From: Eledone cirrhosa
Lineage: Eukaryota
NCBI GenBank assembly: GCA_964016885.1
Contig: OZ024743.1
Coordinates: 98,022,001-98,086,000, forward strand
DNA: 64,000 nt
Reading direction: 5' to 3'
Positions 158 to 64,000 of this stretch are shown here, piece by piece. Made by a program: the position numbers and the translations under genes. The notes beneath the pieces are model-generated. The model saw nothing but the letters and a program-made list of their open reading frames with translations, had not been told where the DNA came from and ran no database searches. Position 1 is the stretch's first letter. Each line of letters opens with the position of its first letter.

Positions 158-380
158 ATAACGAAGGAAGTGTGGTTAAGAACCAGGTGGACCATAACGC
201 ATCAGAGTACTCGATACTTGGGGTAGTAGAGTGGGTAATGGGAAAATAGTCAGGACCCCGGCGGCAGAGCTCAACCCGTCTCGACGGCTATTTCTGGACC
301 CAGAAATAGCTGTCGAATGAGTCCAGAAATAGCAGACGAAACAGCTTGAGCTCTGTCGTCGGGGTCCTGACTCTTTTCCT
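158..380. mobile_element. Fold-back copy of a short TA-flanked repeat family (family V; probable Penelope-like terminal repeat)
   Basis: 241-~300 is an imperfect inverted repeat of ~321-379. The motif gtccagaaatagccgtcgaaacggcttgagctc recurs at ~1758, ~35207, ~50280(-) and ~50463. The 158-240 segment recurs at 1692-1760 and inverted at ~50520-50602. (TA)n on both sides. Confidence 0.7.
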
Positions 381-1211
381 GTGTATATATATATATATAT
401 ATATATATATATATATATATATATATACATAGATGGTGTAATAGGTAAACAGGTACCATTTTCCCGAATGCTCGCTTGATCGAAACCTTCAGTGAAGACT
501 CGCATATTAAATACCTTTCTGTAGTCAATTTACGGTAAAGATTCTAATTTTATATTCAAATTAAATTTATATGCACTGAATGAAGGACTTCTACAATATG
601 GATAGTGATAATAATATCTTTATAAGTATAACTCTTTCCTTCGAAATTTTAGCGTCGGTTTTCCATAGCCGGTAATGTGGGCGAAACTTTGAATTAAATT
701 GTCACTATTAATAATAATTATCATATATATGTATATATATATATGTGTGTGTGTATGTGTGTGTGTGGGTGTGTGTATGTGTGTGTGTTAGTGTGTGTGT
801 GTGTTTGTTTGTGTCTATGTATTTGTGTGTCTGTATATATATATAGTATGTATGTATACATATATATATGTATAAATAGATGTATATATATATACAATAA
901 TAATATTCGATTCGTTTGCAATTATGCAAACAGCCTCTGTTTTAAAGCCATGTCAGTAGAATGAGCCCCTCATTCTTGCTCTTGTGTTTGTGTTGTTAAT
1001 ATTCGAAAAACTCAGATTACATTTATTGTATTCAGCCGTGTAGAGCGATGATTTTTTTTTAATAATATACATATTATATATATATATATATATATATATA
1101 TATATATATATATATATATATATATATATATATATATATATATATATATAAAGAGATGAAATCGAAAATGCAACTGGAGTCTTATTTTTTTTTTAAATAT
1201 ATATATTTATT

Positions 1212-1258
1212 TGGTTCCTTTACCGGTTTCGCAGTTCTTCTGCTTTTCAAAAGTAGAG
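1212..1258 (-). ncRNA. Mirror copy of the U3-A8 hammerhead motif
   Basis: Reverse complement of 1494-1540 in the left palindrome arm. Confidence 0.6.
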
Positions 1259-1493
1259 TTGAGATGGACGGTCTGTGGTTTTTCTCACATCTGGCTGGTC
1301 TCTGAATTTTACTTGTTTTATATGGAAAAAGTGGCTCGAAATGCCAGGTTTTTCGAGAAGTAATTTGATTGGTTGCCAAACAATCAAATTACTTCTCGAA
1401 AAACCTGGCATTTCGAGCCACTTTTTCCATATGAAACAAGTAAAATTCAGAGACCAGCCAGATGTGAGAAAAACCACAGACCGTCCATCTCAA

Positions 1494-1540
1494 CTCTACT
1501 TTTGAAAAGCAGAAGAACTGCGAAACCGGTAAAGGAACCA
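1494..1540 (+). ncRNA. Minimal type I hammerhead ribozyme motif, U3-A8 core variant
   Basis: ctt TTGAAAA gcag-aagaa-ctgc GAAAC CG GTA aag. Core 1502-1508, 4-bp stem II, palindromic ACCGGT stem III, GUA triplet 1529-1531, only a 3-bp stem I. Confidence 0.6.
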
Positions 1541-3998
1541 AATAAATATATATATTTAAAAAAAAAATAAGACTCCATTGCATTTTCGATTTCATCTCTT
1601 TTTCTTTATACTTTCACTCGTGTAGGACACCTCGGTTATTTTTCATCTAATATATATATATATATATATATATATATATATATATATATATATAACGAAG
1701 GAAATGTGGTAAGGAACCAGATGGACCATAACGCACCAAAGTACTCAATACTTAGGGTAGAATTAGCCGTCGAAACGGCTTGAGCTCAGCTGTCTGGGTC
1801 CTACTCGTTCCTATATATATATATAGTAATAAAGTAAAAATAATAATCTGTTATTTTAACGTATGTATGTATATATATATATATATTTATATTTATATAT
1901 ATATATTTATATTTATATATATTTATATTTATATATATTTATATATATATATACATATATGTTTATATATATATATATATATATATATATATATATATAT
2001 ATATATATATATATATATACACCGACAGATGGGTAAAATTGAAATATATATGTCTGGGTGGGTGTTATATGCGTGCGTGTTTGTGTTTGTACACATACAA
2101 AGAAAAGTTGACATGAAGAGAAAGCGAGATAATAAAAGAAAGGAAGACAGTTTAAATACCATTCCATGCAAACCAACAATCGGTCCATTCATCTCTCTTT
2201 TACATTCTTGTTCTTTATCAACTCCTCTATTATACTATTAATATTTATCTATTCATGTTAAACAGTTCTATTACACATATAGCACTTTTGTTTTTCCATT
2301 AACAATTTTACTCTTTGTTCGTTTGTTTCAATAAAGTTTTACTTCGAAATACAAAGCATACAACAAAAATCAATATCAATATATATATCATATATGTTTT
2401 CAAATTTTCTACAATTTCCTTCACATTATATATATATGTATGTACACGCAAACACACACACGCACGCACACACATATGTATATATATATATATATATATA
2501 TATATATATATATATATATATATATATGCATTATGTGTGTGCGTGTAAATAGATAGATGGACATATATCCATATATACATGCTTTCCCAAGATTATTTAC
2601 ACTGGAACTTATATGTATTTATGTATGTGTATGTATGTAAGAATGTATGTATGTAAGCATGTGTGTATGTATGTATGTATGTATTTATGTATGTATATTC
2701 CCAAGTCTTCCATTCCCTCATAATATTACGTGAGAATTCATAGCTATGATTCTATTATGCAAACTATGTGAGGAAAGATCTCTCCTGGGTTTCAATTTGA
2801 ATCATTCCAATTTTGTTTCTCTTCAAATCTAACCAGGTGAATAGACAGCATTTTTGTTTCTTCTATTTCTTTCTTTGTTTGCTGTTTTGTTTTGTTTTTT
2901 TGTGGCGTCAGTAAAAAATATACACATATTAATTAAAAATAATAAATTTAAATAAAATAGAAAAATAACGTATTTATTATTTGAGTGAAACATCGCCAGG
3001 GAATTGTCAAATTTAACATTAGGTTCTGTTGAAAACATAGAGATATTCTATTTTAGTAAAGAGAAACCTCGAAAACAAAAAAACAATTGTATAGTGATGC
3101 AGAAAAACCTCCCAAGAACTATTTGTCTAATTGTACACACACACACACACACACACACACACATATATATATATATATATATATATATATATATATATAT
3201 ATATATATATATATATATGTATATATATATATATATATATATATATATATATATATATATACACACACACACACACACACACATACTGAAACTTATTGAA
3301 TAACTTTGCCTACCTTCCTTTTCCTATCCACAGAAACTAAGAAACAGATAGATAGATAGACAAGTGGATGAATCTTTATATAAATATATATATGTATCTA
3401 TATATGTATATATATATGTGTGTGTATGTGTGTGTGTATGTATGTATATATACATATATATATATATATATATATATATATATATATATATATATATATA
3501 TATATATACAATCATACATACATATATACATACACACACACACAAACAAACACACAAACAAACACACACACACATATATATATATGTGTGTGTGTGCGTC
3601 CGCGTGCGTGTGTCTGTTTGCATGCATATATGTACTTAGAGACAAGCAAACTGGCGTACGTTCATATATTCATCTAAATAAGTTTAAATAATATATATAT
3701 AAAATTAAGTGAGAGAGGAAGGGAGAGAGAGAGAGAGAGAGAGAGAGAGAGAGAGAGAGAGAGAGAGAGAGAGAGAGAGAGGGGGGGGAATACACATGTC
3801 TATATATGCAAATCAATGTAAGTGCAAATTTTTGAAGGCAAAGTGATCATGCATTAGTTTCTATAAAATTCCTGCTATATGCTTTTTCTCTTGTGTCTTT
3901 TGCTAGTCCTCTCTGCTTCTCTCTCTCCCTCCCCTCCCCCTCCCTCTCCCCAGTATCTCTCTCTCCCGCTCTCCTTTTATATATATATATATATAACA

Positions 3999-4362
3999 AA
4001 ATGCGGAAGAAGAAACTGTGGCACATGCCTATATTTAATTGAATGACAAAAATTCACGTTTTTCACAGAGAAAAACAACTTCACTTGCAACTCAGAGAAC
4101 CTGATCTAAGTAATCACATGCGGTGGCTGTCGACATAACTACATAGGACAGACAGGTGTGTCATTACGCAAAAGAATGACCATCCATCGCCAACAAATCC
4201 GAGACATAAACACAAAAAAAATCCCCTTAAGTAGCCATATTGCAGATACCCCCTTTACAAGTGTCCCGATGCTATCTGTCAACAACAAGGAAAAACTATT
4301 TATTATAAACTATTTAATAACGAAAAACTATTTATTAACAAATTTAAACCAACATTAAATAT
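3999..4362 (+). pseudogene. Penelope-like (Neptune-type) GIY-YIG endonuclease fragment
   Basis: One frame reads KCGRRNCGTC...FTCNSENLI*VITCGGCRHNYIGQTGVSLRKRMTIHRQQIRD, with two in-frame stops. CxxC motifs plus YIGQT..R..H. Starts at a (TA)n tract. Confidence 0.8.
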
Positions 4363-62575: not shown

Positions 62576-62760
62576 GGTGGATTGGCAGTATCGGTAGAGG
62601 ATCGGACGCCATGCTTTCCAGCATAGTTACGTCCCTTTACGATCTGAGTTCAAATCCCGCCGAGGTTGACTTTGCCTTTCATTCTTACGGGGTCGATAAA
62701 ATAAAGTACCAGTAATGCACTGGGTAATTGCTGGCCTTGTGCCTAAAGTAGAAACAATTA
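62576..62760 (+). mobile_element. tRNA-derived SINE (main family), full length
   Basis: tggcagtatcggtag A box, gagttcaaatcc B box, core, aacaatta end. Confidence 0.92.
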
Positions 62761-63306
62761 TATGATTACACAAGCAGCGATACATAGGTATTCCGTCTGT
62801 TACAGAAACATATGTCAATACCTAATAAATTCCTTTATAAAACGACTTTCATTTTATATACATCTTTTATATATATATATATGTTTATTTATATATATAT
62901 ATATATATATATATATATATATATTTATGTTTATTTAATATATATATATATATATATATTAAATAAACATGTTTTAACGGTCTATTCTCCGATTTCTTAC
63001 TTTGCCACGTGCTTACGCTCTGCTAACTCTCTAGCCCACTAAATATTAACACTTCGAATATTTAATACTGCCGGCACTAGTATCGCGCACCTTTGGCATA
63101 CGCTACTTGGCAAATAACTATATGTATCACCTATCCTCCCTTTTTTTTCTCTCTCGATACGTAAATACTGTATATATATATATATATATATATATATATA
63201 TATATATATATATATATATAGTAATAATAATAAATTTGTAGACTAAAATCCAAAGAGGGCTCGATAAGGATAAATATATATCAGATATATACGAACCGTA
63301 AAGCAA

Positions 63307-63438
63307 ATATTTATTAAAATAACAGATTAAAGTTTAAGCAAAGAATCGCTGCTTTCACCCTTAACGGGATCTTCTGCCCGTTAAGGGTGAAAGCAGCGAT
63401 TCTTTACTTAAACTTTAATCTGTTATTTTAATAAATAT
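63307..63438. repeat. ~130-bp palindrome beside (TA)n
   Basis: atatttattaaaataacag...ttaacggg atcttctg cccgttaa...ctgttattttaataaatat. Confidence 0.93.
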
Positions 63439-63830
63439 ATATATATATATATATATATATATATATATATATATATATATATATATATATATATATATAT
63501 ATATATATATATATATATATATATAAAAGAGCAATTGATATATTCTTCTTCTTCTTCTTTGTCCACATATGCCTGAGAGAGTCACGAGGGAAGAGTTCTC
63601 AAACACTCCTTCCAGCAGGTCCTGTCAGAAGCAACCGTCTCCAATTGATCCATATGCATATACATTTTATTTCTATTTACATATATATATATATTGTTAT
63701 ACTTTGGGAGGGTCATGTTGCCAATAAGAAACACACGCACCAGTTGCTTTCACTTCAATTTATTATAAATTAAATTTATAAATTTCCGGTTGGTTGGTTG
63801 GTTCCACAACCAGACGATTGTTCATATATT

Positions 63831-63873
63831 GTCAAAGTTCTTTCGTCACACATTCTGTGACCTCTTCAGTGAC
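63831..63873 (-). ncRNA. Minimal type I hammerhead motif (family III) in the left arm of a palindrome running off the window end
   Basis: Minus strand: gtca CTGAAGA g gtcaca-gaatg-tgtgac GAAAG AA CTT tgac. 63853-63918 is inverted at 63935-64000. Confidence 0.7.
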
Positions 63874-64000
63874 TGGGGATTCTTTTCTTTGTTTTTGTGC
63901 CTCTCCTTTGTTCTGTCCAAAACAAGATAGCGTAGGACAGAAAAAAGGAGTGGCACAAAAACAAAGAAAATAATCCCCACTCACTGAAAAGGTCACAGAA

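What the first reader, a model, noticed from the sequence alone, without database searches (positions are those of the whole stretch)
158..64000. Fold-back 'tails-out' hammerhead palindromes planted in (TA)n microsatellites
Seen: at least eight inverted structures from unrelated sequence families (241-379, 1150-1601, 17391-19645, 30039-30361, 35359-35465, 50737-51072, 63307-63438, 63853-64000). Most have one or both outer ends at TA runs. In all eight the hammerhead or hammerhead remnant reads outward: plus strand in the right arm, minus strand in the left arm. Known: Penelope-like elements carry minimal type I hammerheads in their terminal repeats and often insert with an inverted terminal segment. 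Inference: these are non-autonomous, ribozyme-only insertions. They could arise when both strands of a self-complementary (TA)n target prime reverse transcription from RNA 3' ends, or by cDNA fold-back. The result is a cassette with a hammerhead in both polarities that would give a long dsRNA hairpin from either direction. The density (~20 motifs in 64 kb) and the invariant geometry suggest a genome-wide system.
Basis: partly seen in the sequence, partly recalled or inferred. Interest (0 to 1): 0.9.

Follow-up and report, generated by a model that had tools for sequence, protein, structure and literature searches.

The report
Two-armed Penelope retroelement insertion scars
These hairpin-shaped inserts are real head-to-head pairs of cut-off tail ends of Penelope-like jumping genes, nearly always one long end plus one short end, likely made when both strands of a TA repeat start copying at once; the pattern is already known, but here it is very abundant and unusually regular.

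Summary
All eight palindromes are real, lie in TA runs and have outward-reading hammerheads or remnants. Every family has two fixed outward ends, short (S) and long (L). Of 138 classifiable head-to-head pairs, 134 join one S arm to one L arm (26 of 27 in unselected DNA). Six of eight families run upstream into RT + GIY-YIG reading frames, and the same geometry occurs in 4-6 kb ORF-bearing insertions. One family is a 2.6-kb ORF-less tandem unit; one has no parent found. So these are 5'-truncated Penelope-like insertions, not ribozyme-only elements. cDNA fold-back fails as a general mechanism: in 57 of 103 resolved junctions each arm holds sequence the other lacks. Arms ignore the ribozyme cut site (1 of 206). 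Best model: both target strands are nicked and primed, one at each of two internal start sites, then joined by microhomology or filler. The geometry, one-sided tail, TA bias, two starts and opposite-strand hammerhead pairs are published, and this scan saw the pattern before in other genomes. What this adds is the measured one-long-one-short rule and the scale.

The parts
161..379 (.). Family A two-armed insertion: L arm 161-305 (minus, tail 161-240), S arm 318-379 (plus); degenerate hammerhead 3' half only
1151..1650 (.). Family D insertion: S arm left, right arm with tail 1601-1650 (tail has an internal deletion, so it was scored unclassified); U3-A8 covariant hammerhead in both arms (1218-1253 minus, 1499-1534 plus)
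1695..1812 (.). Family A insertion with non-overlapping arms: inverted tail piece 1695-1760 plus S arm; same kind of event, no palindrome
17256..19640 (.). Family C insertion: L arm left (tail 17256-17399), long S arm right; both hammerheads damaged; family C is a 2.6-kb ORF-less tandem unit
29963..30361 (.). Family E insertion: L arm left (tail 29963-30038), S arm right; long-stem-II hammerhead cores in both arms
35284..35466 (.). Family F insertion: L arm left (tail 35284-35358), S arm starts at the hammerhead core and lacks the 5' strand of stem I
50254..50599 (.). Family A insertion (S left, L right) with about 150 nt of filler (50311-50461) that is an inverted copy of 51188-51342
50645..51073 (.). 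Family B insertion: L arm left (tail 50645-50736), S arm right; intact minimal hammerheads 50784-50849 (minus) and 50961-51026 (plus); arms carry different family haplotypes
63221..63438 (.). Family G insertion: L arm left (tail 63221-63306), S arm right; hammerhead with CAGAAGA core variant, 5'-truncated
63691..64000 (.). Family H insertion: S arm left with hammerhead 63831-63873 (minus); L arm runs past the window to about 64236
7739..7799 (+). Single B-like minimal hammerhead followed by an S-type end at TA
17001..17067 (-). Single B-like minimal hammerhead
19732..19802 (-). Single B-like minimal hammerhead
39059..40300 (-). B-like arm with about 1.1 kb T-rich upstream region; hammerhead 39097-39157, S end at TA
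54291..54330 (+). Minimal hammerhead of a further family, end at TA 54362
37772..38530 (-). Separate fragment of a Penelope-like GIY-YIG endonuclease frame (motifs read from memory; no Pfam hit)

Best explanation
Each structure is one insertion of a Penelope-like retroelement made of two 5'-truncated copies of the element's end joined head to head, one ending at a short site (S) and one at a long site (L), likely because both strands of a TA-rich target were nicked and each strand primed reverse transcription at a different one of two internal start sites. Shown: the two fixed ends per family, the one-S-one-L pairing, the TA flanks, the RT + GIY-YIG parents for six families, one ORF-less tandem family, mutually exclusive arm content, and arms running through the ribozyme cut site. 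Inferred: a probably dimeric RT-endonuclease makes staggered nicks about 15-20 bp apart, S priming is probably helped by pairing of the nicked TA end with a TAT-like stretch at S, both cDNAs stop early, and their inner ends are sealed by microhomology-mediated joining with frequent locally templated filler. A palindrome results only when the L arm runs past S. The hammerhead is a passenger lying 27-152 nt upstream of S.
For: Bimodal ends in all 8 families. 134 L+S, 3 S+S, 1 L+L among 138 classifiable of 163 head-to-head pairs (binomial p 9e-35); on inspection the L+L is an internal tandem repeat and 2 of 3 S+S run on into diverged tails. Unselected 560 kb: 26 L+S, 1 S+S, 6 unclassified. Same geometry in ORF-bearing insertions L184, L185, L189, L190 of 4.4-5.7 kb. 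Parent frames upstream on the same strand: D 4 copies, H 4 copies, A 2 of 15 loci, G 2 of 15, E L288, B-like L189 and an EN remnant in L031. Pfam GIY-YIG E 2.7e-7 for D; GIY-YIG and RVT_1 at E 3-5e-4 for H. 27 of 132 pairs have non-overlapping arms. S arm reaches further 5' in 57 of 103, symmetric 33, L further 13. Among 54 filler-free junctions 41 overlap by 2 nt or more, against about 19% expected. 166 of 206 arms pass the cut site, 1 stops at it. An 18-bp target duplication at L017. In vitro, a lizard Penelope protein nicks and extends both strands, starts at two internal sites that bound the tail, and is predicted to be a dimer (PMC11167929).
Against: 25 of 163 pairs have an end that fits neither site, one pair is a true S+S (L089), and many arms have no detected partner, so double priming is not shown to be obligatory. 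Two L+S pairs are duplicated loci. Target duplications are hardly above chance overall (6 of 132 against 0-3) because TA runs hide them. Junction overlaps come from BLAST ends on several references, which inflates them. PMC11167929 saw no strand difference in start-site use in vitro, so the cause of the one-of-each rule is unexplained. One versus two RNA templates is not settled: arms mostly share subfamily alleles (A 60/64, B 134/152, E 59/70, above shuffled null; D 32/47, not above null) but some differ at linked sites. Three of five parent-type proteins had no Pfam hit; their reading rests on recalled motifs and tblastn. No RNA or activity data.
Confidence: 0.78

Rival explanations
1. cDNA fold-back (self-priming): one cDNA hairpins and copies itself to make the second arm.
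For: 33 of 103 resolved junctions are symmetric within 10 nt and 13 have the longer L arm. Arms usually share subfamily alleles. Arkhipova 2013 (PMC3846280, passages) proposed self-priming from junction palindromes.
Against: In 57 of 103 the S arm has upstream sequence the L arm lacks while the L arm has the tail the S arm lacks. 27 of 132 pairs do not overlap at all. Some arm pairs carry different linked family haplotypes, including window 50645-51073. It does not explain why the copy stops at S.
Confidence: 0.1
2. A dedicated class of non-autonomous, ribozyme-only palindromic cassettes that move as units.
For: Family C is ORF-less and F has no ORF within about 0.9 kb of known upstream sequence. 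Hammerhead cores are conserved within families, including a covariant one. Two junctions occur twice.
Against: Six of eight families reach RT + GIY-YIG frames. Junctions are almost all unique. One repeated junction is a 99.8% duplication across the whole 3.1-kb locus, and the other shares flank beyond the insertion. Most cassettes lack two intact ribozymes, and arm ends ignore the cut site.
Confidence: 0.05
3. Two independent single-ended insertions landed back to back in the same TA run.
For: Families are very abundant and all prefer TA; single arms are common.
Against: Independent events would give S+S and L+L as often as L+S and would mix families; junctions usually have no TA between arms; paired arms share subfamily.
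Confidence: 0.04
4. Assembly or amplification chimeras.
For: The exact window junctions were not checked in reads.
Against: Arms differ by up to 15%, are asymmetric in a family-specific way and carry fillers. Raw 150-nt Illumina reads of three other samples show strand-switch joints of family B at the same coordinates in all three (for example 82, 73 and 26 reads; mostly single start positions, as RAD libraries give).
Confidence: 0.02

Closest known systems
Insertion unit of endonuclease-positive Penelope-like elements (Craig et al. 2021, PMC8557442; Arkhipova et al. 2013, PMC3846280)
   Same: Inverted 5'-truncated copy adjoining the main copy, head-to-head arms, tail on one end only, (TA)n preference, hammerhead near the end, RT with C-terminal GIY-YIG, short target duplications where visible.
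   Different: Tails here are 61-137 nt rather than 30-40 bp. Those papers call the tail optional or 'often' one-sided; here it is counted as one of each in 134 of 138 pairs across eight families. The hammerhead end lies 0.2-1.5 kb behind the ORF stop.
Poseidon from Anolis carolinensis in vitro (Frangieh et al. 2024, PMC11167929)
   Same: Both strands nicked and extended in AT-rich DNA, two internal RT starts bounding the tail, ribozyme cleavage not needed, predicted dimer.
   Different: No strand difference in start use was seen in vitro, and there the start sites lie inside the ORF 5' end. The pairing rule within single insertions was not reported in the half of the text I read.
Minimal hammerheads of Penelope-like elements (Cervera and de la Pena 2014, PMC4209133)
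   Same: Minimal type I motifs with palindromic helix III, dual motifs 100-700 bp apart on opposite strands tied to truncated elements, and the U3-A8 covariant core.
   Different: That paper does not explain the opposite-strand pairs. Family G has a CAGAAGA core and family A a degenerate one.
Non-LTR retrozymes / non-autonomous Penelope derivatives (bioRxiv 10.64898/2026.07.22.740005)
   Same: Family C: ORF-less head-to-tail tandem unit with a type I hammerhead in each repeat and an end 84% like a coding element's end.
L1 twin priming (recalled, not read)
   Same: Both target strands prime on retroelement RNA and the products join with microhomology.
   Different: L1 twin priming gives non-overlapping inverted 5' pieces at variable sites; here both starts are fixed and the arms usually overlap.

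Membership tests
EN+ Penelope-like elements | Single ORF with RT and C-terminal GIY-YIG endonuclease | tested here: met
   D (L184: Pfam GIY-YIG above cut-off, RVT_1 E 0.004) and H (L185: both at E 3-5e-4, below cut-off). A, B, E, G parents by tblastn to L189/L034 frames with recalled motifs and no Pfam hit. Not met for C (ORF-less), not found for F.
EN+ Penelope-like elements | Minimal type I hammerhead near the element end | tested here: met
   Core tallies B 37/39, C 35/41, D 38/39 (U3-A8), E 29/34, G 11/14 (variant), H 7/13; A degenerate (4 copies); F tally failed because the pattern was non-specific, core seen in L045.
EN+ Penelope-like elements | Inverted 5'-truncated copy with one-sided tail | tested here: met
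   134 of 138 classifiable pairs.
EN+ Penelope-like elements | Direct pseudo-LTR tandems | tested here: inconclusive
   Seen for family C (L281-L285). Not seen in the near-full D copies L183 and L190. A hammerhead-like motif lies upstream of the L186 ORF (read by eye).
EN+ Penelope-like elements | RT phylogeny within the Penelope-like clade; Neptune or Nematis assignment | not tested
   No reference set available. D and H have a CX4CxxC linker (Craig 2021 gives CX2-5CxxC for Neptune and Nematis); the 'Nematis-like' reading of A, B, E, G is recalled. Atlas look-alikes of the H protein are RT/GIY-YIG/HTH_animal clusters.
EN+ Penelope-like elements | Target-site duplication | tested here: inconclusive
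   6 of 132 against 0-3 in shuffles; one clear 18-bp case.
Non-LTR retrozymes | ORF-less tandem units each with a type I hammerhead | tested here: not met
   Met only by family C; the palindromes as a class are inverted pairs from coding families.
Non-LTR retrozymes | Self-cleavage and circular RNA | not testable with these tools
   No RNA run of the species was offered.

The most novel reading that the evidence does not exclude
Penelope-like integration is intrinsically double-primed and asymmetric: one nucleoprotein commits one target strand to the long start and the other to the short start. Every complete event therefore leaves an inverted pair, and the roughly 10^5 resulting hairpins are a main source of the near-perfect double-stranded RNA behind the extreme A-to-I hyper-editing reported for octopus.
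Probability: 0.3. Interest if true: 0.65.

Novelty: new member of a known kind. Interest (0 to 1): 0.36.

Why it matters
Craig et al. 2021 name the origin of tandem/inverted structures and the microsatellite bias as open questions for these elements. The one-long-one-short rule, the mutually exclusive arms and the junction signature turn that into a sharp prediction for the existing in vitro system. The scale is also large: 26 pairs in 560 kb extrapolate to about 1.4 x 10^5 for eight families alone, and at least 20 of 44 near-perfect non-simple inverted pairs (1.5% of bases) fit the pattern. If the host is an octopus, which I infer only from recalled repeat features, this could explain the excess of near-perfect dsRNA potential that Porath et al. 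2017 (PMC5625713) found there. It is not a new kind of element or ribozyme system.

Tried and rejected
Rfam scan: no hammerhead family hit among the listed rows, only microRNA-like matches to simple repeats. First strict hammerhead scan missed U3-A8 and long-stem motifs. Own-genome search with family H returned nothing, probably because its words are too common. Search for a family F parent hit low-complexity sequence and found no ORF. The family F core tally was non-specific and dropped. Arms stopping at the ribozyme cut site: rejected, 1 of 206. Pile-up of L arms at S, expected if one RNA blocks the second polymerase: weak, 11 of 103 within 10 nt. Palindromes moving as units: the two repeated junctions lie in larger duplications. 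Tail folding gave no shared structure and had no shuffle control. The read test of an exact window junction could not be run. Literature searches for the pairing rule or a cephalopod report found none; the library lacks most subscription papers, and Repbase/Dfam were not available.
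Full report
Setting. The window is G000:C4:98022001-98086000 of a 3.0-Gb genome, rich in (TA)n and other simple repeats. 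I read it as octopus-like from recalled SINE features; this was not tested.

Observation. A repeat-masked self-BLAST shows all eight inverted structures, with arm identity 85.5-100%. A minimal type I hammerhead descriptor gives 11 hits in the window against 0-1 in 8 shuffles. Only two palindromes pass it in both arms: family B (50645-51073) and family D (1151-1650). D uses a U3-A8 covariant core found in 38 of 39 family copies, a variant already reported for these elements (PMC4209133, parts 1-2 of 4 read). In 56 unselected 10-kb pieces (57 asked, one absent; 559,800 bases) there are 52 motifs. Of these, 47 have TATATATA within 250 nt downstream (background 27%), and 21 of 22 inside palindrome arms read outward.

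Each palindrome has extra family sequence on one arm only, between the palindrome and the TA run. I took these longer arms as references A-H and aligned them to the window with its flanks, to loci from four own-genome searches (13 overlapping or window-derived loci left out) and to the unselected pieces. Every family shows two fixed outward ends, S and L, 61-137 nt apart. Of 163 head-to-head pairs, 138 could be classified: 134 L+S, 3 S+S, 1 L+L; 25 had an end fitting neither (p 9e-35 against even odds). The L+L case is an internal tandem repeat, two S+S cases run on into diverged tails, and one S+S is real. Two L+S pairs are duplicated loci. The unselected pieces alone give 26 L+S, 1 S+S and 6 unclassified. 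Seven of the eight window structures scored L+S; D scored unclassified because its tail has an internal deletion. TA lies at both true ends in 114 of 132 pairs, at one in 16 and at none in 2. In 27 of 132 pairs the arms do not overlap, so there is no palindrome (for example window 1695-1812). Palindromes are the subset in which the L arm ran past S.

Parents. D has an endonuclease frame 945-1363 nt upstream on the same strand in four copies, and H has one 214-409 nt upstream in four. Wider fetches show 4.4-5.7 kb insertions with the same L+S geometry and RT + GIY-YIG frames: L185 (H, 736 and 603 aa), L184 and L190 (D), L189 (a 77% relative of B, 517 aa). Pfam supports D and, below cut-off, H; three other frames had no hit and rest on recalled motifs and tblastn. 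A reaches such a frame in 2 of 15 loci, G in 2 of 15, and E in L288. Family C is a 2.6-kb head-to-tail unit with no frame of 200 aa and no tblastn match in five loci; its end is 84% like the end of a broken coding element in L031. It is a non-autonomous derivative, and it reads on past L, so L is an internal start. No parent was found for F.

Mechanism tests. Of 118 pairs tested, 103 junctions were resolved. The S arm reaches further upstream in 57, the two are symmetric in 33, and the L arm reaches further in 13. In the 57, each arm holds sequence the other lacks, which excludes fold-back. Forty-nine junctions have filler, some visibly copied from adjacent sequence. Of the 54 without filler, 6 are blunt, 7 overlap by 1 nt, 15 by 2 and 26 by 3 or more, against 53%, 28%, 12% and 7% for random joins; BLAST ends inflate this. 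Only 1 of 206 arms stops within 2 nt of the predicted cut site, 166 pass it and 39 stop short, so uncleaved RNA is the template. Paired arms mostly share subfamily alleles (A 60/64, B 134/152, E 59/70, F 8/9 above shuffled null; D 32/47 and H 7/9 not significant; C and G had no usable sites), but some differ at linked sites, including the window B pair. One versus two RNA templates stays open. Target duplications are weak overall (6 of 132 against 0-3), with one clear 18-bp case.

Artefact check. Raw Illumina RAD reads of three other samples with the same species label show strand-switch joints of family B at the same coordinates in all three. These are other loci of the family; the exact window junctions were not checked in reads. 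Diverged, asymmetric arms argue against assembly chimeras.

Model. Shown: two fixed ends, one of each per insertion, coding parents, independent arm content. Inferred: a probably dimeric protein nicks both strands of the TA target, each 3' end primes at one start site, both cDNAs truncate, and microhomology-mediated joining seals them. This matches the lizard element in vitro, which nicks and extends both strands, starts at two internal sites bounding the tail, and does not need ribozyme cleavage (PMC11167929, parts 1-2 of 4 read). That study saw no strand difference in start use, so the cause of the pairing rule is unexplained.

Comparison. Craig 2021 (PMC8557442; passages and section 15) describes the adjoining inverted truncated copy, a 30-40 bp tail often at one end only, and TA bias. 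Arkhipova 2013 (PMC3846280; passages) describes head-to-head repeats with junction palindromes and a tail on one of them, and favours self-priming. Cervera 2014 reports opposite-strand hammerhead pairs 100-700 bp apart. The retrozyme preprint (10.64898/2026.07.22.740005; part 1 of 5) fits family C. L1 twin priming is recalled only. I saw no supplements; Craig's file S1 may list these families. Eight searches found no count of the pairing rule and no cephalopod report, within a library that lacks most subscription papers. Earlier notes of this scan describe the same architecture in other genomes; they are not evidence.

Scale and meaning. 26 pairs in 560 kb extrapolate to about 1.4 x 10^5 for these eight families. 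At least 20 of 44 inverted pairs with arms of 50 nt or more and 90% identity fit the pattern, covering 1.5% of bases (several pairs at piece edges could not be classed). Porath 2017 (PMC5625713; passages) found octopus highest in near-perfect dsRNA potential and hyper-editing, and Penelope heavily edited in lizard. A link is plausible but untested, as no RNA run was available.

Verdict. Real and genome-wide, but a known kind: insertion products of Penelope-like elements. The addition is a well-counted one-long-one-short rule and evidence against fold-back.

Noticed in passing
window 50311-50461 and 51188-51342: About 150 nt of filler between the arms of a family A insertion is a 94% inverted copy of DNA some 730 nt downstream, which suggests local template capture while the junction was sealed.
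   Followed up: partly
L281-L285 (for example L282:4601-7557): Family C is a young, ORF-less 2.6-kb tandem unit with hammerhead-bearing direct repeats and over 1,000 candidate copies; a large retrozyme-like derivative.
   Followed up: partly
L185:2443-8317: A 5.9-kb palindrome with two long RT + GIY-YIG frames (736 and 603 aa) head to head, 97% identical arms.
   Followed up: partly
family G, for example L064:5780: Hammerhead with a full helix III and a family-wide CAGAAGA core (11 of 14 copies); activity unknown.
   Followed up: no
L186:7260-9999 and L034:2-2182: Apparently intact Penelope-like ORF of about 830 aa with a hammerhead-like motif about 350 nt upstream of the start (read by eye).
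   Followed up: no
   Followed up: no
window 28148-28308 and 35528-35691: Two copies of another family with a long-stem-II hammerhead.
   Followed up: no
window 59211-59675 (minus): 154-aa frame with a zinc-finger-like stretch resembling the C-terminus of a non-LTR retrotransposon (recalled).
   Followed up: no
window about 8400-8610: Assembly gap of N bases between simple repeats.
   Followed up: no
L047:1-2428: Several nested 100%-identical inverted repeats of 262-743 nt, unlike the diverged arms elsewhere; possibly an assembly artefact or a very recent amplification.
   Followed up: no
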